DNA of 64,000 bases from Bacteroidales bacterium (GTDB lineage: Bacteria > Bacteroidota > Bacteroidia > Bacteroidales > VadinHA17). The stretch spans positions 70,226 to 134,225 of the forward strand of contig JAJFVL010000049.1 of assembly GCA_021371855.1 (NCBI GenBank). Reading direction: 5' to 3'. The translations under genes and the position numbers were made by a program. The number at the start of each line of letters is the position of its first letter. Position 1 is the first letter of the stretch. Under the pieces are notes generated by a model. It was not told the origin of the DNA. It worked only from the letters and a program-made list of their open reading frames with translations, and did no database searches. Of the stretch, positions 24,262 through 44,356 are shown one piece after another.

Positions 24262-24981
24262 TCACATGAACTTCTCCCTTTTTTGCAGGTTCGAGAGAGC
24301 TGCAAGTAAAAAAAGGATTGAACATGTAACGAGTATGATCCTGTTCTTAAAAGTGATTAACGCCCAGACTGTTTCATTGACGTTATTTGGAAGATCGTAA
24401 GGATTTAAAAATACATTCCACTGGCTTCTTTGCAGCGACGAATCCTGAAGTATCATGAAAAATATCCCGAAGATTATCATTAACACTGCAGTTCCGTTTC
24501 CGTTTCGTATGACGGTTGAAAGCATAAAAGCCATCATTCCCAAAAACAGAACCGGGATCATCACCTGCATGGTCATATTTGTAAAGCGGAACTTTACTAT
24601 CAATACTGAGGTAAGGAATGTAAAGACAAGCATTATAAGGAAAGCAATAACAAAGATCAGTACAATTCTTACCAGCCACACTTTGTATCTGTAATTTGGG
24701 ATGCCGAATAAAATCTCTATAGTTCGGGCATCCTGATCATTCTGTATCCCAAATACTGATGGATAAAATACCAGAAGTATTCCGGAGAAGATGAAGATCC
24801 CATACATATCCTCCATTCTTGAGACATCATTTGAAAAAACATAAATCACTGATAATCCGATATAAAACAATATCGACCCGGCAAGGAACCAGATAAATTT
24901 GTTTGCAAAGATGATCCTGAGATTATAAATGATCATTCTCCTGATCAATGTGAAGTAATTATATAATGTGTGAGGTTTCAT
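24262..24981 (-). CDS. ABC-2-type transporter permease (6 hydrophobic helices)
   Basis: A 239-aa polytopic protein. After TM1 it has the ABC-2-like motif DQDARTIEILFGIP, paralogous to the N-terminal domain of the 1170-aa protein (LDTNEVLYTRS). It is the last gene of the efflux locus. Confidence 0.7.
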   Translation of the reverse strand: MKPHTLYNYFTLIRRMIIYNLRIIFANKFIWFLAGSILFYIGLSVIYVFSNDVSRMEDMYGIFIFSGILLVFYPSVFGIQNDQDARTIEILFGIPNYRYKVWLVRIVLIFVIAFLIMLVFTFLTSVLIVKFRFTNMTMQVMIPVLFLGMMAFMLSTVIRNGNGTAVLMIIFGIFFMILQDSSLQRSQWNVFLNPYDLPNNVNETVWALITFKNRIILVTCSILFLLAALSNLQKREKFM

Positions 24982-25011
24982 CCGTAAATAATTTTTAGTT
25001 TAAGGTTGGAT

Positions 25012-25075
25012 GGAACCTCCATGTTTTAAAGATTATCTTCATTCTTGATTGTATTTCGTTAAACATGGAGGTTTC
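25012..25075 (-). other. Intercistronic stem-loop between the RND::ABC fusion gene and the ABC-2 permease gene
   Basis: 13 contiguous Watson-Crick pairs (25014-25026 with 25061-25073), extendable to 15 with a G-U pair, and a 34-nt loop. The right arm overlaps the stop codon at 25074-25076. No U-tract follows on the minus strand. Confidence 0.5.
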
Positions 25076-28000
25076 ATAATGAATTATTTTGCTTCCGTCC
25101 GTTTTCAACGGAGTTGTTTACATTTCTACGTAACAGCCACAGATAGGCATCTTCGAGGTTGGGACTTACATTTACCGCATTATCCCATGGTTTTGTGTCT
25201 GATATAACTCTCACTCTTATATTGTCACCTTCCGACATGTGATGCACTACCAGATGGTCTTCTATAAATTTTCCAAAGTCTTTCGCCGGAATATTGAACT
25301 GCCACACATGTTCTTCAGCTTCTTTTGTCATTTCGATCGGTTTTCCCAGGTATCTTAACAATCCTTTGTCGAGGACTGCAACCTGATTACAGGAGCTTGA
25401 TATATCCTCGATGATATGAGTGGAGAATATCACAATACGTTCACGGCTGAGTTCCACCAGCAGGTTACGGAACCTGATACGTTCCCTTGGATCCAACCCT
25501 GCCGTTGGTTCATCAACAACCAGTATACGGGGTAGGTGGAGGAGTATCTGTGCAATGCCCATTCTCTGTTTCATTCCCCCGGAATACGACCCGATCTTGT
25601 CGTGCCGGCGATCTTCCATATGAACAGCATTCAGTACAAAGGTAACCCGTTCTTCCCTTACCTTAGCATCAATGATATTCTTCAGCATTGCCTGGTAATG
25701 GAGATATTCATGAGCAGTCATATTTTCGTAACTTCCGAATTCCTGCGGCAAATAACCTATCAGTCCCTGAAGCTCTTCCCTCTTTTTCTGGGTATCGAGC
25801 CCGTTTATCCATACCTTTCCGTAGCTCTGTTCAAGGATACCACATATTATTCTCATAAGGGTAGTTTTGCCGGCACCATTTGGCCCAAGCAATCCAAACA
25901 TCCCGTTTCCTATATTCAGCGAGACGCAGTTCAGGGCTTTAAAAGGCTTTTTCTTTTTACCGATCAGGGGAACAGCGGCAACAATTTTATATATTGCCTT
26001 TCGTATCTTCTTAAACCTGCCATTAAGCCGGTAGATATCGATATTCTCATTGCTCAGTTTCAACCCTGTCTTATAAATAAAGAGACCGGCGAACCAGAGA
26101 GAACCCAGGATGAGCACGGTAGCAATGTTCTCCCATTTTATCTGAAAATAAACAAGATTGAATAAAGGAACCAGCCAGAATATCGTAAAATCAGCAGCTG
26201 AGATAAATATTCTCAGAGATTTTTTTTCGTTATGAAGTGAAATATCGGCTGACAGATTTTTAAAGGAGATCCATATCCTTGAAAGAGAGAACCACGTTAT
26301 CATGCTGAAGATAAAGATCCAGAATCCCTTACTTAAGTAAAAGTAGGTAAAATAGATTATGAATCCGAGGATTGGTAACTGCCATGTAAGCTGGCTCATA
26401 TCCTTCCACGATTTATATTGCTTTTCAAGTCCGAGCCTTTGTCTTATTTTTGCACCGGCTTTCCATTCCCTCACCCATCGGCTTTCCCTGTCATAAATTT
26501 TAACCAGGCTCTGAATATAAATACTGATATTTTCATCAGCAGGGATGATTGTCTCTCTTGCTTTTCTGAGGCTGTTCATCACGAACCAGGTTCCTGCAGG
26601 TACAATTATTAAAGTCAGTATTATTGTTATGAGCTGCCAGATAAAACTGTCTATATAGCTGTAAATAAGCAACATTAATGCCGAAAAGAAAATCAGTTGT
26701 ATGATTTTGTTCTTCCATGTTAATGAATATATCCAGTTAAGGGCATTTTCGAGTCCTGAGTAGAATGTTGGTATGAATACCAGGGTAAGAAGTGTGCTTA
26801 GCGTCAGTCCTCCGATAACAGTAATTGCAAATGTGGCTCCGATCACAGAAACATATTCGGCAGTGCCCATCGCCAGTGGCAGCATGGCAATAACTGTTGT
26901 TGATGCCGTTATCAGTATTGGTCTTAGCCGTGCTACTCCTGCAGTCATCAATGCCCTTGAACGGCGATATCCTCGCTTTCGTAAAATTTTAGTATAATCA
27001 ATTAACAGGATACCATTGTTTACCACTATACCAAGAAGGATCAGAAAGCCTGTAAGAGTGTTGGCATTAAGGAGTGAATTGCCTGTAAGTATAAGTGCGA
27101 TAAGCGAACCAAGTGCTGCAAGAGGAATGCTGAATATCAGAACGAACGGGATTGAAAGCGATTCGAATACTGCCGCAAGTATCATAAAGATAAGAATGAA
27201 GGCATAGCCCAGCGGTTTGTAAAAATCCTTAAGTTCGTCCTCTTCGTGCACCACCTCAACAGCAATGCCTGAAGGAATGTTCAGATCTGAAACAATTGAT
27301 TCGATGTCAGCCCGGGCCCCTTCCAGGAGATCTTTGGAATCTTTAATATCATCAGTGAAATTATAAGTTACAGTAATCCTTTTTTCCTGGTTTTCCCTGT
27401 GAATATTCCCCATCCCGTATGAAAAGATGATATCCGAAAGTTCCTGCATCTCCATTATCGAACTGCTGCTTTCGCTCACTTCAAGATGCTTCAGGTCGTC
27501 AATGGTTTTATCGGCATTCTTCTTTACTTCCCCTGTTTCATCAGCATATTTAAGCATGATATCGTATTCATCACTTCCCTGCTTAAATGTAGCACCTGAG
27601 GAATATTCCCTTCCGAAGGTGGCCAGTGATGAGGCTAAATTACTGAGAGAGAAATTGTTCCTACTGAGGAAATCCATGTCAAAACGAAGGTGAACTTCGG
27701 GTGTGCTTTCCTGTACATTTACGCTGACGCGGCTGACTGTTGTCAATTCGTCGATATACGATTTTATATCTTCGGCCAGGCTTCTCATCTGCTCAAAATC
27801 CTGTCCCTTGATGATTACACTTTCATTCTGTGCGCCTATACCAAGCAGGTTCATAAAGTTACCTCCAGGGTTGGCTCCTGCGCTGACTCCGCCTCCGGAT
27901 GAAAAGCCTCCGCTTGTTGAAACCTCATCCATGGAGATCTCTGCAGAGGAGATATTTTTAATTTTTTCTTCTATGTCATTTTTTATTTCAGGAAGCGCGC

Positions 28001-29849
28001 GCTTACTCTTCTTGTTCCAGTCATCTGCCAGATTAATCGTTACAGTTGCTTTTTCTTCCTCAATCCTGCTTATTACATCCTCTTTTTCAGGAAGGCCTGA
28101 GAGTCTTGATTCAATTTCAGAAACAACAGCATCGGTTTTTTCGAGTGTCGATCCTGTTGGCATCTTTACAGATAACCTGAAACTGGGAGTCTCGACTTCC
28201 TTAGTGGAATTAATGCTTAATGTAAGACTGATGAGCAGTGCGGCAAAGAAAACAACCAGGGTCCCGATTATCGTGGCTGCAGGCTTCCTCATGCTGGCTT
28301 TCAGTATAAGGTGGTAGGCCTGAATGAGGCGGTTGTGAATGGAAAGCTTCTGGTATACTGCGGAATTGCTTTTTGATGTCCTTGATAGCAGAAAATAGGT
28401 AGCCATAGGAATAAGAAGCATTGCTACAGCGAGTGAAGCCAGAAGCGTTGTGACTATTGAAACGCCGATATTCTTGATAATTATCTTGATAAGGAAGTTT
28501 GATGAAAAGACAAATGGAAGAAATATTATTACAGTTGTAAGGGTTGAAGCAAAAATGGACCTCCACACTTCAGCAGTTCCCTGCATGACAGCCGTTTCAT
28601 TATCTTTTCCTTCGCCCGCAAGCCGGTAAATGTTCTCGAGCACAACCACCGAATTATCGACAAGCATCCCTATGGCAAGAGCCATTCCTACGAGAGTAAG
28701 ACTGTTTATCGATATATTATAGGCATAAAAGAAATTAAAAGCAGCATAAACCGAAACAGGAATAGAAACTGCGATGACGGTTACCAGGCGGAAATTCCTA
28801 AGGAAAAACCATAAGATCAGTACAGCAAGCATACCTCCGGTAATGGCCAGGTTAATGATCTGGTTGATATTCTTTTCCATCACCTCGGCACTGTTGTTCT
28901 GAACAACTATCTCAACCCCCCACGATTTTAACTTCTTGTTTAGTTCTTCAATCTTTTCAATAGCTTTATGTGAGAGATCGATCAGATTAGCCTGGTTATC
29001 ATTCACGAGAGTAATTGTGACGGCATCCAGTCCATTCACACGGCTGTAAGAACTTTGTTCCTTTACTCCGAAAATGATCTCCGAAATATCACGAAGCAGA
29101 ACAGGTCCATCCTGTTTTACAATAATGCTTCCTATCTCATTTACATCGGTGTATTCGGAGGTTATATTCACAAACAATTTGTTTTTACCGTCAAGAACAG
29201 TACCGGCAAAAGTTTTGTTAGTTCCGTTATTATTCAGAAGTGCACTGACCTGTCCCATTGTAATGCCGTAAGCTTTGCAGGCTTTCTCATTCAATCTGAT
29301 CTCAATTGAATTTTCCTGTCCCCCATAAACCTCAACACCTGCAATTCCATCGATGTTTTCCAGTTCGGTTTTGATCTCACGGTCAGCGACATTACGTATC
29401 CTGTCGGCACCTCCTTCACCTCTTACCTGGAGCTCCATGAACTGGTTGGTAAGTTTTTCAAGGTCAATCTTTATGACATTTATTCTAAATTCGGAAGGGA
29501 TAGAGCTCTTTACAGCATTGATTTTTTCCTGGAGCTTCAGATTTGCATATTTCAGATTAGCATTCTGATTGTAGTAGATCATAATGCTTCCATAGCGGGA
29601 AGAAACGGTTGATTCGATCTTCTCGATTCCCTCAAGAGTTCCAATAGCACCTTCAAGCGGTACAACTGCCTGTTTTTCAATGTACGAAGGATCCATCTCA
29701 AGGGGAGTGCCTACCTGTACTATAAGAGTGGGCAGTTCAGCATTTGGAATAAGCTCAACGGACAGTTTCTTATAAGAGACATAACCGAGCATCGTGAGCC
29801 CGGCAAAAAGCATTATAATAAAAATTCTTCTTTTTAAAACGAAGTTCAT
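25074..29849 (-). CDS. Fusion protein: RND (AcrB/HAE1-like) permease + 2 TM linker + ABC ATPase interrupted by a 4-TM insertion
   Basis: An uninterrupted 1591-aa ORF. Residues 1 to about 1043 are a full 12-TM RND permease. Residues 1108-1123 (ISIYIQSLVKIYDRES) align with the N-terminal strand of the neighbouring ABC ATPase. Residues 1304-1591 carry Walker A (GPNGAGKT), the signature (YSGGMKQR), Walker B (ILVVDEPTAGLD) and the H-loop (STHI). Confidence 0.85.
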   Translation of the reverse strand: MNFVLKRRIFIIMLFAGLTMLGYVSYKKLSVELIPNAELPTLIVQVGTPLEMDPSYIEKQAVVPLEGAIGTLEGIEKIESTVSSRYGSIMIYYNQNANLKYANLKLQEKINAVKSSIPSEFRINVIKIDLEKLTNQFMELQVRGEGGADRIRNVADREIKTELENIDGIAGVEVYGGQENSIEIRLNEKACKAYGITMGQVSALLNNNGTNKTFAGTVLDGKNKLFVNITSEYTDVNEIGSIIVKQDGPVLLRDISEIIFGVKEQSSYSRVNGLDAVTITLVNDNQANLIDLSHKAIEKIEELNKKLKSWGVEIVVQNNSAEVMEKNINQIINLAITGGMLAVLILWFFLRNFRLVTVIAVSIPVSVYAAFNFFYAYNISINSLTLVGMALAIGMLVDNSVVVLENIYRLAGEGKDNETAVMQGTAEVWRSIFASTLTTVIIFLPFVFSSNFLIKIIIKNIGVSIVTTLLASLAVAMLLIPMATYFLLSRTSKSNSAVYQKLSIHNRLIQAYHLILKASMRKPAATIIGTLVVFFAALLISLTLSINSTKEVETPSFRLSVKMPTGSTLEKTDAVVSEIESRLSGLPEKEDVISRIEEEKATVTINLADDWNKKSKRALPEIKNDIEEKIKNISSAEISMDEVSTSGGFSSGGGVSAGANPGGNFMNLLGIGAQNESVIIKGQDFEQMRSLAEDIKSYIDELTTVSRVSVNVQESTPEVHLRFDMDFLSRNNFSLSNLASSLATFGREYSSGATFKQGSDEYDIMLKYADETGEVKKNADKTIDDLKHLEVSESSSSIMEMQELSDIIFSYGMGNIHRENQEKRITVTYNFTDDIKDSKDLLEGARADIESIVSDLNIPSGIAVEVVHEEDELKDFYKPLGYAFILIFMILAAVFESLSIPFVLIFSIPLAALGSLIALILTGNSLLNANTLTGFLILLGIVVNNGILLIDYTKILRKRGYRRSRALMTAGVARLRPILITASTTVIAMLPLAMGTAEYVSVIGATFAITVIGGLTLSTLLTLVFIPTFYSGLENALNWIYSLTWKNKIIQLIFFSALMLLIYSYIDSFIWQLITIILTLIIVPAGTWFVMNSLRKARETIIPADENISIYIQSLVKIYDRESRWVREWKAGAKIRQRLGLEKQYKSWKDMSQLTWQLPILGFIIYFTYFYLSKGFWIFIFSMITWFSLSRIWISFKNLSADISLHNEKKSLRIFISAADFTIFWLVPLFNLVYFQIKWENIATVLILGSLWFAGLFIYKTGLKLSNENIDIYRLNGRFKKIRKAIYKIVAAVPLIGKKKKPFKALNCVSLNIGNGMFGLLGPNGAGKTTLMRIICGILEQSYGKVWINGLDTQKKREELQGLIGYLPQEFGSYENMTAHEYLHYQAMLKNIIDAKVREERVTFVLNAVHMEDRRHDKIGSYSGGMKQRMGIAQILLHLPRILVVDEPTAGLDPRERIRFRNLLVELSRERIVIFSTHIIEDISSSCNQVAVLDKGLLRYLGKPIEMTKEAEEHVWQFNIPAKDFGKFIEDHLVVHHMSEGDNIRVRVISDTKPWDNAVNVSPNLEDAYLWLLRRNVNNSVENGRKQNNSL

Positions 29850-29867
29850 GTTCTGTTTTATAAGAAA

Positions 29868-32800
29868 TTATGCCGGATTAACTTTTTTTCTTTCAGACAC
29901 TGTCAGCCATTGGGTGAGACTGTCAAAAATCCAGTAAACACATGGGATCACTATCAGGGTCAGAAGAGTGGAAGAGACCAGACCACCTATTACTGCAAGA
30001 GCCATCGGAGATCTAAGTGATGCACTTTCACCGATCCCGATCGTAAGAGGGAAGAGAGCAAGAATTGTAGTCAGGCTTGTCATCAGTATCGGTCTTATTC
30101 TTTGACTACCGGCAAGAACAATAGCCTCTTTTTTATTCAGTCCTCCTTCCCTGAGTTGATTTATCCGATCGATGAGGAGAATTGCATTGTTTACGGCAAT
30201 CCCTCCAAGCATTATTATTCCGATGTAGGCCATCATATTAAGCGTTTTTCCCAGAAGGAAAAAAATGAGAACTGTTCCGACACCAGCCAGGGGGATGGTA
30301 AGCATTATTATAAAAGGTTGAATTATTGATTCAAACTGTGCTGCAAGAACCATGAAGACAAGAATAAGTGAAAGCATAAGTGCAAACGAAAGATTTGCAT
30401 TCGATTCCTTCCGCTTCATCTCCTCCCCGGTGAGTTGCAGTTTATAATCAACAGGAAGAGTCACTGCCTTTAGAGATTGCCCGGCATCTTTTGCTACATG
30501 ATCAAAAGCAACATCTTTATTCACATTTGCATAGATATAGCAGGTCCTTACCTGATTCCTGCGTGTAATCTCACGAGGACTTAAAACTGTTTTGATGGTG
30601 GCAAACTCACTGAGAGGAACCGATACTGTTCCGGCTGTTATCTTCAGATCTTTTAGCTGATGCAGCGAAATATCCTCAAGCTTAATAGTGATATCTTTCA
30701 TTTCACCATCTTTCTCGAAACTGCCTGCGGAAGAACCCGACAAATAACTTTTTACCTGGCTGATTACATTGTCAGTGGTGACATTGTAATAACTTGTTTT
30801 GAAACGGTCAATGGCCACCTCTACCCCGGGGGTACCTTCATCCATTGATGTGGTAATATTGTACAATCCGCTATTCTTCCCAAGAATAGTTTTTGACTCA
30901 TTAAGAATTCTCTCCAGTTCAGTATAGTCTTTGCCTGAAATTTCAAGTTCAAAAGGAGCTTCTGTGGTCCCAAGAGATGATTGGAGGGCAGTCTCCTCGC
31001 GTGTAAATGTTACTTCAAGATCAGGGATTGAAGAGAGGTAGTTATCAATTGTAGTTATTGCATTTTCCGTAAGTGAGGCGAACTTCTTATCCAGTATTAT
31101 TTTAAGCGAAGCTGTGTTTTCGCCTTCTGTCCCTGTGTTATTGGTAAGAGAGGATGTTTTACCCTTGCCTGCCTGACAATAGATAATATTTATTTTGTCG
31201 CCTAGTAATTCCCTGATAATTCCTTCGGTCTTTGATGCTGTACTGAAAGTGCGTTCGAGACTGGTTCCCTCAGGAAGTTTCAAATTTACAGCAAATTCAG
31301 CTGATTCTGATTTTGGCATGAATTCACTTCCAAGCTGTGGTATCAGCAGAGCAGTTCCTGCCATTAGCACAACTGATAGTATAATTACAAGTTTTCTTTT
31401 TTCAATTGCTTTTTCCAGGAAGCGATAGTACCATCCGAACTTCAGGGGATAGGAAATTTCGTTTTTCTTCTTTTTATCGCTAAAGAGTGTCGACACCATC
31501 ATCGGTATGACAAGCATTGCAACTACCAGTGAAGAGAGAAGAGCAAAAGCTACGGTCCATGCCTGATCTTTGAACATCTCTCCTGAAGCTCCATGCAGAT
31601 ATACTATCGGAAGGAAAACCACAATGGTTGTCACAGTTGAGGCGGTTATAGCCCCGCCAACCTGTCCTGTTCCCTTAATGACGGCCTCTTTAAGAGGGAC
31701 TCCTTCCTCCCTGAGCCTGGTTATATTTTCGAGCACAACAATGGCATTGTCAACCAACATTCCAGCTCCGAGCGCAAGCCCTCCTAATGTCATTATGTTG
31801 AGGGTCAGATGGTTGAAATACATCAGGTTAAAGGTTGCAATTATTGAGACAGGGATTGCAACGCTGATTACAAGAGTAGTACCTATACGTCTCAGGAATA
31901 TGTAAAGAACAAACACCGCCAGAAGAATACCTACAATAAGTGTGTTTTTGACCTCACCAATGGCATTATTGATATAATTTCCCTGGTCCTGCACTTTAAT
32001 GAATTCATAACCCGGTAAGGCTTTGGCAAGGTCGGCAAATGCCTTGTCGAGGCTTTCAACGGCATCTACGGTATTGTATTTTGGTTCCTTATATATTGAT
32101 AATCCAATGCACCGCTCCCCGTTAATTGTGACAATGTTCTCAGGATCTTTATTAGCTAACTTTATTGCAGCAACATCTTTCAGGTATACCGGTACTTTTT
32201 CTGATGCTGAAGCGGAAGTAGCACTTTTGGTGGTCTCTGATGCGGTTGAAGATGAGGGTTGTGTGAATCCGACAATAATATTTTCAAGGTCTTTAATATC
32301 CTCAAGAACTGTTACTCCCTTAACTGTATATTTAGTACCCATATCCACAATTGACCCTCCGGAAACATTTTTATTGTAATTGCTTATTTTGGCAGCAATT
32401 ATATCTGAGGTGATCCCATAAGCTTCAAGCACGTATTTATTTGTTTCAATTACCACCTCGCTCTCTTCCTGTCCTGTCAGCCGTACATCGGCTATCCCTT
32501 CAATCCTTACAAGTTCATTACGGATATAGTTTTCAGCAGTCTTGCGCAGCTCGTCCATATTTGTGATATGGTCGTTCTTAAGTCCCACGATCATAACAGG
32601 AGAAGCATTGGGATCGTATTGGGAGATGGTGAAGTCATCGATATCGGAGTTCTGGGCAAATGAGTTCAGTTCCTTCTGAAGATCGAGAAAGGCTTCATCC
32701 ATATCTTTATTCCAGTCATATTCAACGGTTATAGTAGCTGATCCCACTTTTGAAACTGATGAAACCTGAACAACATCACTCTGTTGCATCGAAAGTGATT

Positions 32801-33005: not shown

Positions 33006-33010
33006 GTTAG

Positions 33011-34063: not shown

Positions 34064-34085
34064 GGGAATATAAGTTATATTTTAT

Positions 34086-35576
34086 TTATTTTTTATTTAA
34101 TGTCATTACCGGCGAAACAGGTTCTTTTTTCTCAAAGTCATAAAGTGTCTGGATTTTAAGATTCAGCAATTCAAGCTTGTAAGAGATAAGAGAATTTGTG
34201 TAAGAGAGTTTTTTTTCAGATAGCTGGTTCTGATAGATATTAAGGTCCATTCCTGTAAGGTCACCGTTCTTGTATTTTTCGAGATTAAGATCATAAGCAA
34301 GCTGGGCATTAACGACATTCTGGCGTGCAATTTCGATCTGGTTTTGCAAATTCAGAAGATTTCTGTATATCTTTCTGATACTAAGAATAATATCATTCTG
34401 TTCTTCCTCAAAAGCAATATTTGCTGACTCGATCGATGCTTCAGATGCTTTTATTCTTGATTTTCTTTCCCCCCAGTCCCAAAGGGGGATTGACAATGAC
34501 AATGAAACGCTTTCGTTATTTGTGGGGGTTTCATATACATTTCCGAATTTTTCATTGTCCCCGAAAAGCCCGACTGAAAGACCCAGGTTTCCTTTAAATT
34601 CGTTCAGCGCTTTAGTCTGAATAAGATTAAACTCGGATGACTCAATATTGATTTTACGTTGTCTTAATTCCATCCTGTTATCAAGCCCCTGATCGATGGC
34701 AAAAGCAACATCAACCTTCACAGTGTCAACTGCAATGTTTGGCAGAACCAGAAGATCTTCATACAAACTCATTCCGATCACGATCTTGAAATTGTCCTTG
34801 GAATTCTCGAAAGACACCTGGCTGTTCTCAAAATCAGATTTTGTTGTGGCAAGGTTAAGCTCAGCCTGGAACATCTCCTCGCGGGCCAGCAGGCCGGCAT
34901 CGACTTTATTCCTGGAGACTTCGTAACTCTTCTGCATATTTTCGTATGCCTGCCTGGATATCTCAAGGCTTTGTTGTTTCTGGTAAACATCATAAAAAGA
35001 TGTTGTGACTTCTTTCTCGAGCGAAAGTAACTGTATTGCATAGCTCAACTTTGCGTTTTCGAGTGCAAGTTGCAGCTCTTTAAGTTCAAGTTTGGTCCTG
35101 TTGTAGGTGAACAGGGGCTGATTAAGATTGAGAGCAAGGTTGTTGCTGAATCCCTTATTTGTTGCACCTGAATATTCGCTGTATGAGTCTTTATATCCAA
35201 ATTTATTCACCAGCGATATGTTTGCGTCAGTTAAGAGTACAGGTTGTGAAATGGTGAATGTGCCGAAACTTTCTGTTGTCTTTGTTGAGTTCCATGCTGA
35301 GATGAGTTCATTAAAGGAACGGTTCTGGCTATATCCTATCGGGTTGACCGATAGCGAAAACTGAGACTTCAGGGCTGCGTTCTGTGCATTCAGGTTTTCC
35401 TGGCTCCTTACAAGGCTGAGCCGTGTTGTTTTCATTGTCGGACTGTTTGATTCGGCAATGCTCATTGCTTCATCAATTGTCATTCCTTTCTGAGAAAAGG
35501 ATATTATGAAGGTGGCCGGGAACAATATTAGAAGCAGGTATAATCTCCTCAGTTTGACGTTGAATCGTTGTTTCAT
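34086..35576 (-). CDS. TolC-family outer-membrane efflux channel
   Basis: 496 aa with a signal sequence and the duplicated alpha-helical/beta repeat pattern of outer-membrane factors. It lies directly upstream of the adaptor gene. Confidence 0.9.
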   Translation of the reverse strand: MKQRFNVKLRRLYLLLILFPATFIISFSQKGMTIDEAMSIAESNSPTMKTTRLSLVRSQENLNAQNAALKSQFSLSVNPIGYSQNRSFNELISAWNSTKTTESFGTFTISQPVLLTDANISLVNKFGYKDSYSEYSGATNKGFSNNLALNLNQPLFTYNRTKLELKELQLALENAKLSYAIQLLSLEKEVTTSFYDVYQKQQSLEISRQAYENMQKSYEVSRNKVDAGLLAREEMFQAELNLATTKSDFENSQVSFENSKDNFKIVIGMSLYEDLLVLPNIAVDTVKVDVAFAIDQGLDNRMELRQRKINIESSEFNLIQTKALNEFKGNLGLSVGLFGDNEKFGNVYETPTNNESVSLSLSIPLWDWGERKSRIKASEASIESANIAFEEEQNDIILSIRKIYRNLLNLQNQIEIARQNVVNAQLAYDLNLEKYKNGDLTGMDLNIYQNQLSEKKLSYTNSLISYKLELLNLKIQTLYDFEKKEPVSPVMTLNKK

Positions 35577-35684
35577 TTTATTGACTTTAAATTCTGATTA
35601 TATTTTTATTTACCTCGGAGTAACGCTAAGATATTCACGGAGATACACGAATTTTACCGATCCCCGGTTTCCCTTTTCCGTAAC

Positions 35685-35772
35685 TCTCTCAGCTCTATGC
35701 TCTACTCTTTGCTCTGCTCTTTTATCTTTTAACTTTTATCTTTTATCTTTTCTGTCTTTTATCTTTTTTTAC
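35685..35772. repeat. Low-complexity pyrimidine tract with CTTTTAT heptamer repeats
   Basis: The plus strand reads CTCTCAGCTCTATGCTCTACTCTTTGCTCTGCTC, followed by about six CTTTTAT-like units (35719-35770). It lies in the 245-nt gap upstream of the TolC gene. Confidence 0.6.
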
Positions 35773-35821
35773 CAAAGAGGCTACGTAGTTTTACTGATTC
35801 TCAGACCTCCCACCTCACACC

Positions 35822-38800
35822 TCAGTTCTGCTTCACCCACTTAATTGCATCGCCAATCACTACTCTTCCGGCCGAAAGATTTGTCAGAGCAACTTTTGCT
35901 GTACCTGGTGAAAGGTAGTAACGGCCAAGTTTGTTCCAACCGGCATCAGCGTCCTGGTATTCAATTGTTATTTCTTCCACACCTTCGTCATGGTATATTT
36001 TGTAATGCATATCCTTATATGGATTGTCTCGCTGGGGTTCACCTCCCGGACCTGCCTGGCTGCCCGGACTACCCCCCGGGGCACCCTGAGCTCCGGCCCC
36101 TCCGGGTCCTCCGCCTGCTCCTCCCGGACCTCTTCTTCCCGTTACCAGAATCCGGTCACGGGTTTTTCCCACATAGCAGAATATATCATAATAGCCTGGC
36201 TCTTTGATAGTGGCAGACCATACTATTTCTTTATCGCCCGAACCACCGCGGGTATATACCGACGAAAGAATATAATCCCCGTAATAATTGGTTTCAACAA
36301 CTTTCTGCCAGTATTCTGGTACATTCATCATTCTGACCTGCTGGTACATTTCGCTTCTATTGTTTTTTATTCCAAGAAGTTTTTTAAGAGGACTGACACT
36401 ATCCCTGACGGCTACAATAAAACCCGGATCTTCGTTATCAACAATTATCTCTGAGGGATCTCTGTATTGCGGGATTGAAGGAAGGATAGCTTCGCCCGCG
36501 AATTCTTCAGCTCTTTTTTCCGATTTTGCTATTTCATTGATTGGCATAGTTATCTGGCCTGGTATGTTCTTCGCGAACAGAGTGTTAACCATCATTGCTC
36601 TTGGGCGGGCATCAAGTACAACACCAACCTTTTTTGCCTCGTTGGGTCCGATAAGCACTATTTTTGAAATATCAGAAGCTTCCATGCCGCGTCCCTGCAT
36701 CGAAATAGCAAAATTCCTTCCTCTTCCGGCTCCTCCCTGTGTAACAGTTGCTGTCACTCTTTGACCTCCTCTTCCCTGTGATCCCGGACCTCCCGTGCGG
36801 AATGATACATTGAATATTCCTGCAACAGGCTCAATATTAGACACAATAAAGGTCACCTGGTATTTCGATCTGTCACCTGTAATAATTTCTGTTGCCTGAA
36901 CATTTGTGAAACGGAAACCAGGCTGCTCTTTCTTATTAAACCAGTCATCAAGATAAGGATAGAACTCAAAACCGAATCTCCCATTTATATCGTCATTCAA
37001 TTGCTTAATATCAACTCTTTTAAACCTGTGATCATCAATGTATTTCTCAAACCAGTCTTTAAACTCTGTAATCCCTGCCTTTGCCCTGATCAGATTAAAG
37101 AGATAATCACCTTTTACAGTCAGGACAGCCCTCATAGTATCACCTGAGGGATTCTTTTCCAGAAGATCCCTGAAACTTGTCTCTTTAAGTATAAGATTTG
37201 CTTTGTCATTTTCGGTAAGCCCTCCCATCATACCACCGAATCGGCCTTGTCCAGGTACAGATACTTTCTGAAGATGAGATTCAAAAACAGCATTTATAAC
37301 AGGATATTCCGAAGAGTAGAAATTGTTTTTGAAAAAGTAGAAACTTGGTGCAAGACGATACCGGGTTGGTTCGTTAAGAACGTTTCCCTTTACAAACCTG
37401 AAATTCTCACCGCTGATAAATGTGTTTCTGATAAAATTGTTAAATGTTCTGACCTGCAGCTCTTTATCAGTAATGACCTGATTGTTTCGGGTCATCCTTT
37501 TTTTCTGTCGTGATATTTGTTTACGGAATCCTGCATTTTGCAATGTCGATAATTTCTCAGGAAGCAAAACCATTGAAGGTTGCAATTCTGCCCTGGTCTG
37601 AGTGTTCATTTTCGGAAAAGAATGAAACTGAACGGGAACTTCAACAAGACTCAGGGTACCAAAAGGGTATTTGCTTGAGAAATTTGTTTCCAGTTCCCTT
37701 AGTATTCCTGAAACAAGTAATGGCAGAGTATCTTTAATTTCAGCAAGATCCTTTTTGTAATAATCATGTCCCGGGAAATTGAAACTTATGAATCTGACCG
37801 AGTCAACTATCAGAGTATCCGACTGATAGTCTCCTATAACAAGTGTCAGGCCGGTCAGTGAAGATTCCGGGACGAAAACGAAATCTCCGTTATCCGTTTT
37901 CCTGTTGCCCTGCGATATTACATTAAGCCCTTCTTCTGTTTTTACCCGCAACGTGAACCTGGTGAAATCAATTTTTATCCGTGCAGGATTCGATGGATAA
38001 TAATTCAGTCCTGTTACAGGATACCATTGTGATTCGGGAGTTAATAAAACATATTTCTTTGTCAGAAATGCCTGCCGTTTGTTCACATTAAGCATAGCAA
38101 TACGGTATGGTGTTTCTTTGATATTATCGGTGTAGTTAGGATAACAAAATGCCTCATTTATTGATCCGCTGTAGGTTATCTTAACGCTGTCGCTCATTCC
38201 GGGTTCAAGAACCTTTCCGGGATCAACCTCAATAATCTGATTTGTTTTTTTAAAATTAAGATTGTTTCCGTTAGAAGTGATTCTGGAAACGGACAAAGAA
38301 GGATTCAGGGAGAAAATATAACTATCAAGCCCCACCCTGTTATCATTAACAAACTTTAAGAGGGCAGATGCCTCAAATGTATCTCCTTTGTGAATGAAAT
38401 TTATTGAAGCATCGGTTATGCTTGTAACGTTACTGTTCTCGAATTCTTTATTGGTTTTAATTGCCAATTCTTTATCGTCAGCTCCTTTTTTATAAGCTGA
38501 ATAAGTATTCAATCCGCAAATGGCTGATCCGGCCAGGAAGATGAGCATAAATATCCAGGAAAAGGTGCTGTGTGTTTTTGATTGTGGTAATCGTTTGAAT
38601 AGCAATACTGTAGCCAATACCATGGCCATCCCTATGAAAAAATACAGGAGGCGTTGATTTAAAATATTATTTAAATTGTCAAATCCGATCACCCCTGATT
38701 TCAATACAGGAAGTCCAAATGCCATGTAATCGAAAATAGATCCGGACCTGTCGTAGAGCCAGAATATATTAAGTGCTGCCAGTCCGAGTAAAATAAGAAA

Positions 38801-39334
38801 GGTTATAGCCTGGTTCCTGATGACCGACATCAGCATAAAAGCAAGTCCGAGACTGAAAATGATTGTTGGGACGCATATAATCAGAAGATAAGAGACGTAT
38901 GACATTAAATCGATTGACATACTTTTTGAAATGATATTCATAATCAATCCTATCGATAAAATGATTAAATCAAGTCCCAGGAAGAGCCGGAGTATCCCCC
39001 AGGTTTTTCCAATAATATATTCAAGATTCGATATTGATCTGGTATAAAGAACTTCATTAGTGTCGAGTTTTTTATCTCTTTTGAGGAAATCGGCTGCAAG
39101 GAAGATGACCACAATAGCCTGACCAATATTAAGGAGGTATAGATTAACAAGAGGAAGAGAAGCAGGTAGTGAAACCAGCTCCCATGTTTCGGAACCTACG
39201 GGAGAAAACAGACCAATGTTTAAAAATGTGAATATCAGTAGTGCAACTATTGAAAAGAGCCTGAAGAACCAGCTCCTCCTTAATGTTTTTGCTTCATATT
39301 GTGCAACAGTCCTTATGTTGTGAAGAAGTACCAT
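35822..39334 (-). CDS. ABC-2 permease fused to an M1-aminopeptidase-like (apparently non-catalytic) ectodomain and a C-terminal beta-rich module
   Basis: 1170 aa. About 290 N-terminal residues form a polytopic ABC-2-like domain. The central region shows the M1 N-terminal/catalytic-domain pattern, but the translation has no HExxH or GAMEN motif. A Gly/Pro linker (36011-36139) precedes a 62-aa C-terminal module. Confidence 0.75.
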   Translation of the reverse strand: MVLLHNIRTVAQYEAKTLRRSWFFRLFSIVALLIFTFLNIGLFSPVGSETWELVSLPASLPLVNLYLLNIGQAIVVIFLAADFLKRDKKLDTNEVLYTRSISNLEYIIGKTWGILRLFLGLDLIILSIGLIMNIISKSMSIDLMSYVSYLLIICVPTIIFSLGLAFMLMSVIRNQAITFLILLGLAALNIFWLYDRSGSIFDYMAFGLPVLKSGVIGFDNLNNILNQRLLYFFIGMAMVLATVLLFKRLPQSKTHSTFSWIFMLIFLAGSAICGLNTYSAYKKGADDKELAIKTNKEFENSNVTSITDASINFIHKGDTFEASALLKFVNDNRVGLDSYIFSLNPSLSVSRITSNGNNLNFKKTNQIIEVDPGKVLEPGMSDSVKITYSGSINEAFCYPNYTDNIKETPYRIAMLNVNKRQAFLTKKYVLLTPESQWYPVTGLNYYPSNPARIKIDFTRFTLRVKTEEGLNVISQGNRKTDNGDFVFVPESSLTGLTLVIGDYQSDTLIVDSVRFISFNFPGHDYYKKDLAEIKDTLPLLVSGILRELETNFSSKYPFGTLSLVEVPVQFHSFPKMNTQTRAELQPSMVLLPEKLSTLQNAGFRKQISRQKKRMTRNNQVITDKELQVRTFNNFIRNTFISGENFRFVKGNVLNEPTRYRLAPSFYFFKNNFYSSEYPVINAVFESHLQKVSVPGQGRFGGMMGGLTENDKANLILKETSFRDLLEKNPSGDTMRAVLTVKGDYLFNLIRAKAGITEFKDWFEKYIDDHRFKRVDIKQLNDDINGRFGFEFYPYLDDWFNKKEQPGFRFTNVQATEIITGDRSKYQVTFIVSNIEPVAGIFNVSFRTGGPGSQGRGGQRVTATVTQGGAGRGRNFAISMQGRGMEASDISKIVLIGPNEAKKVGVVLDARPRAMMVNTLFAKNIPGQITMPINEIAKSEKRAEEFAGEAILPSIPQYRDPSEIIVDNEDPGFIVAVRDSVSPLKKLLGIKNNRSEMYQQVRMMNVPEYWQKVVETNYYGDYILSSVYTRGGSGDKEIVWSATIKEPGYYDIFCYVGKTRDRILVTGRRGPGGAGGGPGGAGAQGAPGGSPGSQAGPGGEPQRDNPYKDMHYKIYHDEGVEEITIEYQDADAGWNKLGRYYLSPGTAKVALTNLSAGRVVIGDAIKWVKQN

Positions 39335-39349
39335 GATTGTAATTTATTA

Positions 39350-40243
39350 TTATTCAATGATATCAGCGTGCAACTTGTGTTCCATATAATATACATAAGC
39401 ATGTTCGATATTTGGCATAATGCCGGTTGAACCGAACTCGGGAGTACTATCCGAAACGATCTGCACCTCCCATCCTGCTTCAACAGGAATCGTTGATATC
39501 ACGTTATAGCGTTCTTTAGCCATTTCATATTCATCAGGGGTAAGCTTAAGTTTAAATACATGGCCTTCAGCATGTTTTATGAGGTTTTCGGGTGAACCGG
39601 AAAAGACCAGTTCTCCTTTATTAAGTAATGCCATTCCCTGGCAGGTAGATGAGATGTCTCCGACAATATGAGTAGATAAAATTATAGTGACATCATGCTG
39701 GCTCAACTGTGAAAGGATATTTCTGAATCGTATTCTTTCATCAGGATCCAGGCCTGTTGTAGGTTCGTCGACTACTATGATCTTTGGATTTCCGATCAGG
39801 GCCTGGGCAATTCCCAATCGCCGTTTCATTCCACCTGATAACCTGTTGGCCTGACGGTCGCGTACTTCAAGAAGGCCCACCTGGTCGAGCAACCGGTCAA
39901 CTTCAGAGATCCTTTCTTTTTTGTTCTTCAATCCGGCAAGAGATCCTGAATAATCAAGAAACTCCCAGGTTTTGAGAGAAGTGAAAAATCTGAAATCTTG
40001 TGGAAGATACCCCAGCAAACTTCTGAGTTCTTTCCTGTTACTCTGAATATTCTTCCCATCCACAAGTACTACTCCTGAAGATGGTTTCATCAATGTAACA
40101 ATTATTCTCATAAGGCTTGATTTCCCGGCTCCATTAGGCCCAAGAAGACCAAACATCCCAGACCCGAATTCAAGATTTATATCTTTTAGTGCATGATTAC
40201 CGTTTGGATAGATTTTGTTAAGTCCCTGAATCTCAATTTTCAT
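39350..40243 (-). CDS. ABC transporter ATP-binding protein (ABC-2/DrrA-like, with a C-terminal accessory domain)
   Basis: 297 aa with Walker A GPNGAGKS, signature LSGGMKRR, Walker B IIVVDEPTTGLD and H-loop STHI. It lies 15 nt upstream of the permease-fusion gene and is clearly paralogous to the C-terminus of the 1591-aa protein. Confidence 0.92.
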   Translation of the reverse strand: MKIEIQGLNKIYPNGNHALKDINLEFGSGMFGLLGPNGAGKSSLMRIIVTLMKPSSGVVLVDGKNIQSNRKELRSLLGYLPQDFRFFTSLKTWEFLDYSGSLAGLKNKKERISEVDRLLDQVGLLEVRDRQANRLSGGMKRRLGIAQALIGNPKIIVVDEPTTGLDPDERIRFRNILSQLSQHDVTIILSTHIVGDISSTCQGMALLNKGELVFSGSPENLIKHAEGHVFKLKLTPDEYEMAKERYNVISTIPVEAGWEVQIVSDSTPEFGSTGIMPNIEHAYVYYMEHKLHADIIE

Positions 40244-41783: not shown

Positions 41784-41799
41784 CTAAAATAATGATATC

Positions 41800-44349: not shown

Positions 44350-44356
44350 AAGATTG

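What the first reader, a model, noticed from the sequence alone, without database searches (positions are those of the whole stretch)
24262..40243. Seven-gene co-directional locus: two paralogous ABC-2 modules flank a TolC / adaptor / double-RND core
The gene order on the minus strand is: ABC ATPase (39350-40243), ABC-2 permease::M1-like (35822-39334), a 245-nt gap, TolC, adaptor, RND, RND::ABC-ATPase, a 92-nt gap with a hairpin, then ABC-2 permease (24262-24981). The other intergenic gaps are only 5-22 nt. The two ATPases are clear paralogues, sharing GMFGLLGPNGAGK, VVDEPTxGLDPxERIRFRN, STHIxxDISSxC and a conserved C-terminal accessory domain ending PNxExAY. The two permeases also share an ABC-2 motif. 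In each pair one partner is fused to something large: the TMD to an ectodomain in pair 1, the NBD to an RND in pair 2. Tandem RND genes suggest a heteromeric MdtBC-like pump. The overall design suggests a single envelope-spanning export apparatus of unknown substrate rather than a chance neighbourhood.
Basis: partly seen in the sequence, partly recalled or inferred. Interest (0 to 1): 0.75.

Follow-up and report, generated by a model that had tools for sequence, protein, structure and literature searches.

The report
Hybrid RND–ABC envelope export operon
Seven neighbouring genes encode what appears to be one cell-envelope-spanning export machine, in which a proton-driven RND pump is covalently fused to half of an ATP-driven ABC transporter; this hybrid recurs in many bacteria and I found no description of it in the papers I could search.

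Summary
The interpretation also holds. The 1591-aa RND::ABC-ATPase ORF is a genuine, conserved fusion. Its linker occurs in only 106 of 1.84 billion representative proteins, always at about residue 1020-1295 of proteins of about 1570 aa.

All seven parts co-occur in about 45 species genomes and 80 metagenomic loci. Most are Bacteroidota, but Calditrichota, Gemmatimonadota, Latescibacterota, Desulfobacterota and Gammaproteobacteria are also represented. Two deep-branching loci keep all seven parts in a different order.

New findings:
- The fused NBD is split: its β1/A-loop strand is separated from the rest by a 4-TM insertion, after two further extra TM helices.
- The small downstream protein has a type-V (ABC-2) TMD fold.
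- The large permease carries a catalytically dead M1-like domain and a carbohydrate-binding-type (Golvesin_C) domain.
- Both RNDs carry paired D408N/K940N substitutions.

Best reading: a heteromeric RND tripartite pump physically tethered to a heterodimeric type-V ABC transporter, acting as a two-stage exporter of an unknown substrate. I found no description in the searchable literature, and RefSeq calls the fusion only "efflux RND transporter permease subunit".

The parts
39350..40243 (-). ATP1: free ABC ATPase (297 aa), DrrA/GldA-like NBD with a C-terminal accessory domain
   Evidence: ABC_tran E 4e-31. drrA and GldA models score about 184 bits, below their cut-offs. Walker A, Q-loop, signature, Walker B D-E, H-loop and A-loop Tyr are conserved in all orthologs.
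38480..39334 (-). Large permease, N-terminal ABC-2 type TMD (residues 1-285, 7 predicted TM helices)
   Evidence: KD hydropathy. 15 of 28 orthologs hit ABC2_membrane_2, best E 2e-9. hhalign to the small-permease family gives E 9.5e-5.
36815..38479 (-). Large permease, periplasmic M1-aminopeptidase-like pseudo-enzyme domain (about residues 286-840)
   Evidence: The ortholog profile hits M1 peptidases (6a8z, tricorn F3, APN, ERAP1) in two segments, E 5e-7 to 1e-3. 20 of 28 orthologs hit Peptidase_M1. None of the 28 has HExxH or GxMEN.
35825..36337 (-). Large permease, C-terminal Golvesin_C / CBM6-35-36-like domain, interrupted by a Gly-rich stretch
   Evidence: Golvesin_C E 3e-13, present in 28 of 28 orthologs. 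The profile hits the xanthan lyase C-terminal domain 6f2p at E 6e-11. This domain class is described as carbohydrate-binding in PMC9166713.
35577..35821 (.). 245-nt intergenic gap holding a heptamer repeat (about 6.9 copies at 35718-35767); possible internal promoter or processing region
   Evidence: In orthologs the gap at this position is usually under 100 nt or the genes overlap.
34086..35576 (-). Outer-membrane factor (TolC-like, 496 aa)
   Evidence: OEP, two stretches, E 3e-46. TolC family model E 3e-29, below its cut-off.
33011..34063 (-). Periplasmic adaptor (MFP) lipoprotein, 350 aa, lipobox LSGC
   Evidence: TIGR01730 RND_mfp scores 196 bits, above its cut-off of 94.9. Sequence.
29868..33005 (-). 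RND1: stand-alone RND permease (1045 aa)
   Evidence: ACR_tran E 3e-222. The closest solved structure is MdtB, 9lyq, E 6e-91. D407, R971 and T978 are kept; D408N and K940N.
26748..29849 (-). RND2 domain of the fusion protein (residues 1-1034)
   Evidence: ACR_tran 2-1031, E 2e-162. 28% identical to RND1. Same D408N/K940N pattern.
26556..26717 (-). Two extra TM helices (TM13-14, residues 1045-1098) after RND TM12
   Evidence: AF2 helices 16-36 and 40-69, pLDDT 84-91. Hydropathy. No Pfam match.
26493..26522 (-). Displaced β1/A-loop strand of the NBD ('IYIQSLVKIY', residues 1110-1119)
   Evidence: AF2/DSSP β-strand at 81-90. K and Y are invariant in 36 orthologs across phyla. Splicing this strand onto the NBD extends the GldA HMM match from position 16 to position 2 and adds 4.3 bits, while an alternative strand adds nothing. 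In L042 and L045 the same strand sits only about 60 soluble residues before β2.
25974..26480 (-). Insertion in the NBD β1-β2 hairpin (residues 1124-1292): an amphipathic helix plus four TM helices (TM15-18)
   Evidence: AF2 helices 95-110, 119-142, 146-178, 181-210 and 213-238. No Pfam match. A linker-only search finds 106 representative proteins, all within RND::NBD fusions or fragments of them.
25077..25961 (-). NBD2 core (β2 onwards) plus C-terminal accessory domain (residues 1297-1591)
   Evidence: ABC_tran E 6e-28. All catalytic motifs are invariant in the family. Foldseek top hits are TM_1403, NosF, the ABCA NBD-RD and LptB.
25014..25073 (-). RNA hairpin directly after the fusion's stop codon (13-bp perfect stem, no U-tract)
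   Evidence: dG -18.3 kcal/mol, z -3.67. Sequence.
24262..24981 (-). Small permease (239 aa): type-V / ABC-2 TMD
   Evidence: AF2 pLDDT 75, pTM 0.72, with the topology connecting helix / TM1-2 / coupling helix / TM3-6. The top 40 Foldseek hits are all type-V ABC TMDs: PmtCD, NosY, ABCG2, ABCG5/G8 and ABCG25, with TM-scores 0.5-0.6. Sporadic ABC2_membrane hits among orthologs.
40244..40466 (.). Divergent intergenic region shared with the HD-LpxD-LpxC/FabZ-LpxA cluster; presumed operon promoter region
   Evidence: consensus matches only. This adjacency is conserved in 47 of 48 loci of the window's clade but in 0 of 11 loci of the distant clade.

Best explanation
The seven genes encode one portable, envelope-spanning export machine. 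It joins an RND-type tripartite pump to a type-V (ABC-2) ABC transporter.

Shown by the analysis:
1. All seven parts are inherited together across phyla.
2. One RND paralogue (RND2) is covalently continued, through six extra TM helices, into an ABC nucleotide-binding domain. That domain has every catalytic motif intact.
3. The fused NBD is split. Its β1/A-loop strand lies between extra TM helices 14 and 15, and four TM helices are inserted in the β1-β2 hairpin.
4. The small downstream protein has a type-V ABC TMD fold.
5. The large permease is an ABC-2 TMD. It carries a periplasmic, catalytically dead M1-like domain and a carbohydrate-binding-type domain.

Inferred:
(a) The free ATPase and the fused NBD are 41% identical paralogues and both look competent. 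They form one NBD heterodimer that sits under a heterodimer of the large and small permeases.
(b) RND1 and RND2 form a heterotrimer containing a single RND2::NBD2 subunit. This would reconcile trimeric RND with dimeric ABC stoichiometry.
(c) The ABC part uses ATP to extract or flip an amphipathic or glycan-bearing substrate from the cytoplasm or inner leaflet. The pseudo-M1/CBM ectodomain holds or guides it in the periplasm.
(d) The RND part then expels it through the adaptor and the TolC-like channel. It is presumably proton-driven through the retained D407/R971/T978.

The tether keeps the two engines in one complex and may synchronise them. The substrate is unknown. There is no conserved biosynthetic neighbour, which favours a defensive or envelope-maintenance role over export of a dedicated secondary metabolite.
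For: Fusion real and conserved:
- Linker-only phmmer against 1.84e9 representatives gives 106 hits. Every full-length hit is 1550-1587 aa with the linker at about 1020-1295.
- The full-length fusion occurs in about 45 GTDB species across at least 6 phyla.

Co-inheritance:
- Searches show the canonical order in every locus as far as the DNA reaches.
- L042 and L045 keep all seven parts in a different order, with the ATPase/permease adjacency swapped. This argues for one four-part ABC unit.

NBD competence.

Split NBD.

Type-V identity of the ABC part:.

The ancestral ABC cassette (ATPase plus ABC-2 permease, sometimes with an M1 domain carrying an intact HEVAH) exists without RND in other phyla.

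RND side: the closest solved relative of RND1 is MdtB, the subunit of the heteromeric MdtBC pump. A single adaptor gene and an OMF gene lie in the operon.

Precedent for functional cooperation between inner-membrane transporters and tripartite pumps: PMC4338810 (abstract seen).
Against: - No experimental data of any kind. No transcript, interaction or phenotype data.
- AF2 coordinates and PAE were not available to me. That β1 packs into the NBD sheet is inferred from the DSSP strand assignment and from sequence, and is not seen directly. How the six extra TM helices pack against RND or the permeases is unknown.
- The NBD heterodimer and the RND heterotrimer stoichiometry are pure inference. 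Two homodimeric ABC transporters remain possible.
- The fold-search E-values for the small permease are modest (6e-3 and weaker), although the hits are uniform in kind.
- OMF is absent from the gene run in Latescibacterota and Desulfatiglans loci.
- Type-V relatives such as NosDFY act as mechanotransducers and not as transporters, so step (c) may be wrong.
Confidence: 0.55

Rival explanations
1. ABC part as mechanotransducer or loader, not as a transporter. ATP hydrolysis by the ATP1/NBD2 pair is transmitted through the ABC-2 TMDs to the periplasmic pseudo-M1/CBM ectodomain. This would resemble NosDFY, or by analogy MacB, LolCDE and FtsEX. The ectodomain would capture a periplasmic or outer-leaflet substrate and load it into the RND pump, or would gate or assemble the pump. 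Nothing would cross the inner membrane through the ABC part.
For: NosF and NosY are among the best structural matches for both the NBD and the small permease. There is a large, conserved, non-catalytic periplasmic domain with a carbohydrate-binding-type module. RND pumps normally take substrates from the periplasm or outer leaflet (established knowledge).
Against: The structural matches include true exporters equally well: PmtCD, ABCG2 and ABCG5/G8. Nothing in the sequence separates transport from mechanotransmission.
Confidence: 0.22
2. Two separate homodimeric ABC transporters. (ATP1)2(large permease)2 would work on its own. (RND2::NBD2)2(small permease)2 would be tethered to a heterotrimer containing two RND2 subunits and one RND1, as in MdtB2C.
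For: In the main clade each ATPase gene is adjacent to one permease gene. Standalone relatives use one ATPase gene with one permease gene. MdtBC has 2:1 stoichiometry (established knowledge; the review mentions the heterotrimer).
Against: The adjacency is swapped in L042 and L045: ATPase next to the small permease, and the large permease next to RND2::NBD. The four ABC parts never occur separately in this family. Both NBD paralogue lineages are maintained across phyla.
Confidence: 0.13
3. ATP-driven or ATP-gated RND. D408 and K940 of the canonical proton relay are replaced by Asn in both RNDs. The pumps would therefore have weakened proton coupling, and the fused, membrane-anchored NBD would drive or gate the RND conformational cycle directly through TM13-18.
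For: D408N/K940N is present in essentially all orthologs of both RNDs. Six extra TM helices link RND TM12 directly to the NBD's A-loop hairpin.
Against: D407, R971 and T978 are invariant, which is enough for a one-proton relay in other RND-superfamily members (own knowledge, e.g. SecDF). RND1 has no NBD. L042 and L045 lack the TM insertion. I could not test whether DN/N is general for Bacteroidota RNDs.
Confidence: 0.07
4. Chance neighbourhood, mere co-regulation of independent transporters, or an assembly or frameshift artefact that creates the fusion.
For: None beyond the generic frequency of transporter genes. The 245-nt gap could host an internal promoter.
Against: The fusion is present in isolates and MAGs from many independent assemblies. 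The parts list is conserved across phyla and across a rearrangement.
Confidence: 0.03

Closest known systems
MdtABC-TolC (E. coli heteromeric RND tripartite pump)
   Same: Two tandem paralogous RND genes with one adaptor gene and an outer-membrane channel. MdtB is the closest solved structure to RND1.
   Different: This system is not orthologous: the MdtB and MdtC models score about 245-368 bits against cut-offs of 1584 and 1774. The two RNDs are only 28% identical. One RND carries six extra TM helices and an ABC NBD. Two ABC-2 permeases and a second ATPase are obligatory partners. The proton-relay residues D408 and K940 are replaced.
MacAB-TolC and other ABC-type tripartite efflux pumps
   Same: An ABC ATPase module combined with a periplasmic adaptor and a TolC-like channel. 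A large periplasmic domain sits on the permease.
   Different: MacB has a type-VII fold with an N-terminal NBD, 4 TM helices and the periplasmic domain between TM1 and TM2 (review PMC8277102). Here the TMDs are type V/ABC-2. The ectodomain is C-terminal and M1-like. Two RND permeases are also present.
NosDFY(L) and other bacterial type-V (ABC-2) systems (PmtCD, DrrAB, GldAFG)
   Same: The NBD with its C-terminal regulatory-type domain, and the 6-TM permease fold, match NosF/NosY and PmtCD. The ATPases score best with the drrA and GldA models. As in NosDFY, a large periplasmic partner domain is present.
   Different: None of those systems is fused to, or encoded with, an RND pump. There is no NosD or NosL. 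The GldA equivalog cut-off is not reached (184 against 402.6 bits). The NBD here is split by a 4-TM insertion.
Standalone 'ATPase + ABC-2 permease (±M1 aminopeptidase domain)' cassettes in Acidobacteriota, Chloroflexota, Bacillota, Planctomycetota and Heimdallarchaeota (uncharacterised)
   Same: These are the closest NBD relatives (42-47% identity), with an adjacent permease like the pM1 TMD. One carries an M1 domain.
   Different: They have no RND, adaptor or OMF genes, and no linker. The Planctomycetota M1 domain keeps HEVAH, whereas all the RND-associated ones have lost HExxH and GxMEN.
Functional (non-covalent) cooperation of inner-membrane transporters with RND tripartite pumps
   Same: The concept of two-stage efflux: first across the inner membrane, then from the periplasm to the outside (PMC4338810, abstract).
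   Different: In known cases the partners are separate, unlinked proteins. Here the two stages would be hard-wired by a gene fusion and a conserved operon.

Membership tests
RND superfamily, HAE-type tripartite permease | Full-length 12-TM ACR_tran architecture with two large periplasmic loops | tested here: met
   ACR_tran matches 4-1027 of RND1 (E 3e-222) and 2-1031 of the fusion (E 2e-162). PDB hits cover the full length of MdtB, AcrB and MexB.
RND superfamily, HAE-type tripartite permease | Canonical proton relay D407-D408 (TM4), K940 (TM10), R971 and T978 (TM11) | tested here: not met
   D407, R971 and T978 are invariant. D408 becomes N in 36/37 RND1 and 32/36 RND2 (S or T in the rest). 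K940 becomes N in 36/37 and 36/36. The relay is partial.
MdtBC-type heteromeric RND pump | Two paralogous RND genes in tandem served by one adaptor | tested here: met
   RND1, RND2 and a single MFP are present in 34 of 34 loci.
MdtBC-type heteromeric RND pump | Orthology to MdtB/MdtC (NCBIfam equivalog cut-offs) | tested here: not met
   Scores are 368 and 350 bits (RND1) and 245 and 246 bits (RND2), against cut-offs of 1584 and 1774.
MdtBC-type heteromeric RND pump | Physical heterotrimer | not testable with these tools
   This needs co-purification, cryo-EM or multimer prediction.
ABC ATPase (both ATP1 and NBD2) | Walker A, Q-loop, LSGGQ-type signature, Walker B with catalytic Glu, H-loop, A-loop aromatic | tested here: met
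   All are invariant in NBD2 orthologs and in ATP1 orthologs. In NBD2 the A-loop Tyr lies on the displaced β1 strand.
Type-V / ABC-2 exporter TMD | Topology of N-terminal connecting helix, TM1-2, coupling helix, TM3-6, with a fold matching ABCG/ABCA/Wzm/NosY | tested here: met
   Small permease: AF2 topology, and the top 40 Foldseek hits are all type-V TMDs. Large permease TMD: ABC2_membrane_2 in 15 of 28 orthologs, and hhalign to the small permease gives E 9.5e-5. The Pfam gathering score is not reached by the window's own two sequences.
M1 aminopeptidase | Fold or sequence-profile similarity to the M1 N-terminal and catalytic domains | tested here: met
   Profile against the PDB gives two segments, E 5e-7 to 1e-3. 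Peptidase_M1 is hit by 20 of 28 orthologs.
M1 aminopeptidase | Zinc site HExxH(18)E and exopeptidase motif GxMEN | tested here: not met
   Both are absent in all 28 orthologs and in the L042 and L045 homologs. This is a pseudo-peptidase, not a member in the enzymatic sense.
GldA/GldF/GldG gliding-motility ABC transporter | GldA equivalog score; presence of GldG | tested here: not met
   TIGR03522 scores 184 bits (ATP1) and 172 bits (NBD2) against a cut-off of 402.6. There is no GldG-like gene in the locus.
MacB-type tripartite ABC pump | Type-VII fold: N-terminal NBD fused to a 4-TM permease with the periplasmic domain between TM1 and TM2 | tested here: not met
   The architecture and fold are type V instead. 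The MacA model is only a weak hit for the adaptor.
Outer-membrane factor (TolC family) | Two OEP repeats | tested here: met
   OEP, two stretches, E 3e-46.
RND periplasmic adaptor (MFP) | TIGR01730 above its cut-off; lipoprotein signal | tested here: met
   196 bits against 94.9.

The most novel reading that the evidence does not exclude
A truly dual-energised pump. ATP binding and hydrolysis in the split NBD would be transmitted mechanically into the RND transmembrane domain. The path would run through the four TM helices inserted in the NBD's A-loop hairpin and the two helices that follow RND TM12. The RND transport cycle would then be driven or gated by ATP, in addition to or instead of the proton gradient. 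The paired D408N/K940N loss in the proton relay fits this reading. It would be the first ATP-coupled RND transporter and a new class of tripartite pump.
Probability: 0.12. Interest if true: 0.95.

Novelty: new variant of a known kind. Interest (0 to 1): 0.8.

Why it matters
Tripartite efflux pumps are classified by their inner-membrane engine: RND, ABC or MFS. The engines are thought of as alternatives.

Here an RND permease and an ABC ATPase are one polypeptide, within a seven-gene unit that has been kept together across several phyla. This implies a machine that combines a proton-driven and an ATP-driven transporter in one complex.

If the two-stage reading is right, it hard-wires a cooperation between inner-membrane exporters and RND pumps that so far is known only as a loose functional synergy.

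It also raises structural questions:
- How does a trimeric RND accommodate a dimeric ABC?
- What does a membrane-embedded insertion in the β1-β2 hairpin of an NBD do?
- Why do both RNDs carry a neutralised D408/K940 pair?

The system is common in environmental and some gut Bacteroidales and in Cytophagales. It is present in cultured strains: Prolixibacter bellariivorans, Draconibacterium mangrovi, Maribellus maritimus, Marivirga tractuosa and M. sericea, Parabacteroides massiliensis, and Bacteroides spp. 224 and 519. It is therefore directly testable.

Current annotation hides it. The fusion is called 'efflux RND transporter permease subunit' and the small permease 'hypothetical protein'.

Tried and rejected
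- Single-sequence Pfam, NCBIfam and PDB searches of the 1170-aa protein gave no M1 signal. Only the ortholog profile did.
I had to use shallower alignments (50-82% identity) from the protein-search hits.
- AF2 output gives no coordinates or PAE. Packing of the six extra TM helices and direct β1-β2 pairing could therefore not be inspected.
- An alternative β1 candidate (residues 1267-1284, 'NIDIYRLNGRF') was rejected. It adds nothing to the ABC profile match.
- The 6-TM linker has no Pfam family and no convincing structural match separate from the NBD.
- The control for D408N/K940N using unrelated RND genes in the fetched loci failed, because none were present. I cannot say whether the substitution is specific to this system.
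- There is no riboswitch or other Rfam element in or around the operon.
- No regulator or biosynthetic gene is conserved downstream, or upstream in the distant clade.
- Seven literature searches, and a look through the main review of tripartite pumps, found no description of an RND-ABC fusion or of this operon. The library does not cover subscription journals or TCDB.
- The word-indexed protein search listed only hits under 1000 aa for this family. Context look-ups for two of them on long contigs showed frameshift-fragmented genes. The exhaustive search and the genome scan gave the true lengths.
- Assembly artefact and chance neighbourhood were rejected.

Full report
**Observation.** Seven minus-strand ORFs occupy exactly the coordinates given, with gaps of 15, 245, 22, 5, 18 and 92 nt. 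The Pfam and NCBIfam assignments are listed here.

| Coordinates | Product |
|---|---|
| 39350-40243 | DrrA/GldA-like ABC ATPase |
| 35822-39334 | 1170-aa protein with 7 predicted TM helices and a C-terminal Golvesin_C domain |
| 34086-35576 | OEP/TolC-like channel |
| 33011-34063 | Lipoprotein RND adaptor, above its curated cut-off |
| 29868-33005 | Full-length RND permease |
| 25074-29849 | 1591-aa ORF: ACR_tran at 2-1031, ABC_tran at 1309-1450, with about 270 unassigned hydrophobic residues between them |
| 24262-24981 | 239-aa, 6-TM protein with only a sub-threshold ABC-2 hit |

The two RNDs are 28% identical. The 92-nt gap begins with a 13-bp perfect hairpin, dG -18.3 kcal/mol and z -3.7, with no U-tract.

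**Is the RND::ABC fusion real?** I searched the linker alone (residues 1030-1300) exhaustively against 1.84 billion representative proteins. It hit only 106 of them. Every full-length hit is 1550-1587 aa with the linker at about residue 1020-1295, and the rest are fragments. A family alignment shows strong conservation of the RND core, the linker and the NBD, with all catalytic NBD motifs invariant.

A scan of one genome per GTDB species found the full-length fusion in about 45 species. Among Bacteroidales these include Prolixibacter bellariivorans, Draconibacterium mangrovi, Maribellus maritimus, Parabacteroides massiliensis and Bacteroides sp. 224, together with Rikenellaceae and Marinilabiliaceae. 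Among Cytophagales they include Marivirga sericea and M. tractuosa. MAGs labelled Calditrichaceae, Gemmatimonadaceae, Latescibacterota, Desulfatiglans, deltaproteobacterium and Gammaproteobacteria also carry it. The closest relative is a fen Bacteroidales MAG at 81% identity. The window itself matches a Logan assembly contig.

RefSeq holds a 1632-aa version in Bacteroides sp. 519, named only 'efflux RND transporter permease subunit'. The short hits in the word-indexed protein search include genes fragmented by frameshifts on long-read contigs.

**Is the locus one unit?** I labelled all ORFs in 44 genome loci by BLASTP against the seven window proteins. The order found is ATPase | large permease (TMD + ectodomain + Golvesin_C) | OMF | adaptor | RND1 | RND2-linker-NBD | small permease. 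It is co-directional and tightly spaced in essentially every locus.

Counts for the 34 loci with at least 9.6 kb upstream:

| Component | Present |
|---|---|
| Adaptor, RND1, RND2, NBD2 | 34/34 |
| Large permease TMD | 33/34 |
| OMF | 32/34 |
| ATPase | 31/34 (the three misses are flank ends) |

The small permease is found in 38 of 40 loci with downstream DNA. A second, independent sample of 80 metagenomic loci, anchored on the large permease, shows the same order with no violation.

The two exceptions, L042 and L045, are deep branches. Their order is adaptor | ATPase | small ABC-2 permease | RND1 | large permease::M1-like | RND2::NBD | OMF. All seven parts are kept there, but the ATPase/permease adjacency is swapped.

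Paralogue labels (ATP1 against NBD2, RND1 against RND2) are consistent across all phyla, so both duplications predate the spread of the system. Genes outside the seven are not conserved between clades.

**The ABC half.** An ortholog profile of the large permease hits M1 aminopeptidases in two separate segments: the N-terminal β-domain and the C-terminal part of the catalytic domain. It also hits the C-terminal domain of a xanthan lyase. Of 28 orthologs, 28 hit Golvesin_C, 20 hit Peptidase_M1 and 15 hit ABC2_membrane_2. None has HExxH or GxMEN, so the ectodomain is a pseudo-peptidase.

The Golvesin_C class corresponds to a CBM6/35/36-like carbohydrate-binding domain that is also found in Bacteroides lectins (PMC9166713). 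With seven TM helices, the C-terminal ectodomain is predicted to be periplasmic (inference).

The small permease family is large and is annotated 'hypothetical'. Its AF2 model (pLDDT 75, pTM 0.72) has the type-V topology, and its 40 best PDB matches are all type-V TMDs: PmtCD, NosY, ABCG2, ABCG5/G8 and ABCG25. Profile-profile comparison links it to the large permease's TMD (E 9.5e-5).

The NBD and its C-terminal domain match TM_1403, NosF and the ABCA NBD-RD units. Both ATPases keep every catalytic residue.

Outside this system, the nearest NBD relatives (42-47% identity) sit next to ABC-2 permeases without any RND. One Planctomycetota permease carries an M1 domain with HEVAH intact. The ABC half therefore looks like a recruited two-gene cassette that was duplicated and then specialised.

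**The linker and a split NBD.** AF2 of residues 1030-1591 gave pLDDT 83 and pTM 0.67. In order, it predicts:
1. Two TM helices after RND TM12.
2. A 10-residue β-strand (1110-1119, 'IYIQSLVKIY').
3. An amphipathic helix.
4. Four TM helices.
5. The canonical NBD, starting with β2.

The strand resembles β1 of the free paralogue ('IEIQGLNKIY'). Its Lys and Tyr are invariant in 36 orthologs from all phyla. DSSP strand assignment requires a pairing partner, and only the NBD has strands (inference).

I spliced the strand onto residues 1297-1591. This extends the GldA profile match from position 16 to position 2 and adds 4.3 bits, while an alternative strand adds nothing.

In L042 and L045 the same strand lies only about 60 soluble residues before β2, and there are no extra TM helices. 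The 4-TM block is therefore a derived insertion in the β1-β2 hairpin that carries the A-loop Tyr. From my own knowledge, this is the same site as the regulatory insertion of CFTR NBD1, but here it is embedded in the membrane.

The helix counts are even on both sides and the positive-inside pattern holds. Both β1 and the NBD are thus on the cytoplasmic side (sequence).

**The RND half.** Mapped onto AcrB, both paralogues keep D407, R971 and T978 in all orthologs. D408 is replaced by Asn, and K940 by Asn, almost universally. I could not establish whether this is specific to the system, because no unrelated RND genes were present in the fetched loci. It remains unexplained.

**Mechanism.** The following points are shown:
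- Co-inheritance of the seven parts.
- A covalent RND-NBD link.
- Competent NBDs.
- Type-V TMDs.
- A dead M1/CBM ectodomain.

The following are inferred:
- One heterodimeric ABC transporter (ATP1·NBD2 over the large and small permeases), favoured by the adjacency swap in L042 and L045.
- Tethering of that transporter to an RND heterotrimer holding a single RND2 subunit, which would resolve the trimer/dimer mismatch.
- Two-stage export: ATP-driven extraction across or from the inner membrane, then RND-mediated expulsion through the adaptor and channel. This hard-wires a cooperation otherwise known only between separate proteins (PMC4338810).

The main rival is a NosDFY-like mechanotransducer role for the ABC part. 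A bolder possibility is direct ATP coupling or gating of the RND cycle.

**Regulatory and context notes.** No Rfam element was found. In the window's own clade the operon is divergently adjacent to HD-LpxD-LpxC/FabZ-LpxA in 47 of 48 loci that reach far enough. In the Prolixibacteraceae-like clade this holds in 0 of 11 loci. This may be inherited gene order, or a weak hint of a link to outer-membrane lipid biogenesis.

**Novelty.** Seven full-text searches, and the main review of tripartite pumps, gave no description of an RND-ABC fusion or of this operon. The library is incomplete, and TCDB could not be consulted. All components belong to known families. The combination, the split membrane-anchored NBD and the conserved seven-part design are new. 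I rate it a new variant of a known kind (tripartite efflux systems), of high interest.

Noticed in passing
window 40467-45130 (+), and loci L085-L146: The operon is divergently adjacent to an HD-domain gene followed by LpxD, an LpxC-FabZ fusion and LpxA. This adjacency is conserved in 47 of 48 metagenomic loci of the window's clade (LpxA identity down to about 57%). It is absent in all 11 loci of the distant Prolixibacteraceae-like clade. It could be inherited gene order, or a hint of a link to lipid A / outer-membrane biogenesis.
   Followed up: partly
window 35718-35767: A heptamer tandem repeat (TAAAAGA on the coding strand, about 6.9 copies) lies inside the unusually long 245-nt gap between the large permease and the OMF gene. 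Most orthologs have a much shorter gap here.
   Followed up: partly
window 29868-33005 and 26748-29849; all orthologous loci: Both RND paralogues carry the paired neutral substitution D408N + K940N (AcrB numbering) while keeping D407, R971 and T978. Whether this is general for Bacteroidota RNDs could not be tested.
   Followed up: partly
L081:6281-10150 (Planctomycetota MAG): A standalone 1290-aa ABC-2 permease is fused to an M1 peptidase domain with an intact HEVAH motif, next to an ATPase 44% identical to NBD2. It is a possible active ancestor-type of the dead ectodomain seen here.
   Followed up: partly
L042:5690-21001 and L045:476-16391: These are deep-branching versions of the system. They have a shorter fusion (about 1437 aa, no extra TM helices), a large permease without Golvesin_C, and a different gene order ending in the OMF. 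The host phyla are not named in the records.
   Followed up: partly
L155:4094-5493, L158:8437-8835, L159:6796-7383, L161:8270-8878: In 4 of 11 loci of the distant clade, a small (about 195 aa) signal-peptide-bearing β-rich protein is encoded co-directionally upstream of the ATPase gene, in three of them directly (185-240 nt away). It is duplicated in L155. It was not characterised.
   Followed up: no
window 20020-21024 (+): A radical SAM protein gene also lies just downstream of the operon in two close relatives, L004 and L023 (54-67% identity), but not elsewhere.
   Followed up: partly
window 21218-22801 (-): A 527-aa ORF between the radical SAM gene and a GFO/IDH/MocA oxidoreductase has no Pfam match.
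   Followed up: no
window 7074-14483 (+): A 2469-aa SprA homolog, a type IX secretion component (SprA_N E 2e-210), is followed by IF-2 and NusA on the opposite strand. This is ordinary Bacteroidota chromosomal context.
   Followed up: no
L001, L002, L024: Long-read-type metagenome contigs carry the same operon broken into many short ORFs by apparent frameshifts. Gene fragments of this kind are among the hits under 1000 aa listed by the word-indexed protein search.
   Followed up: yes
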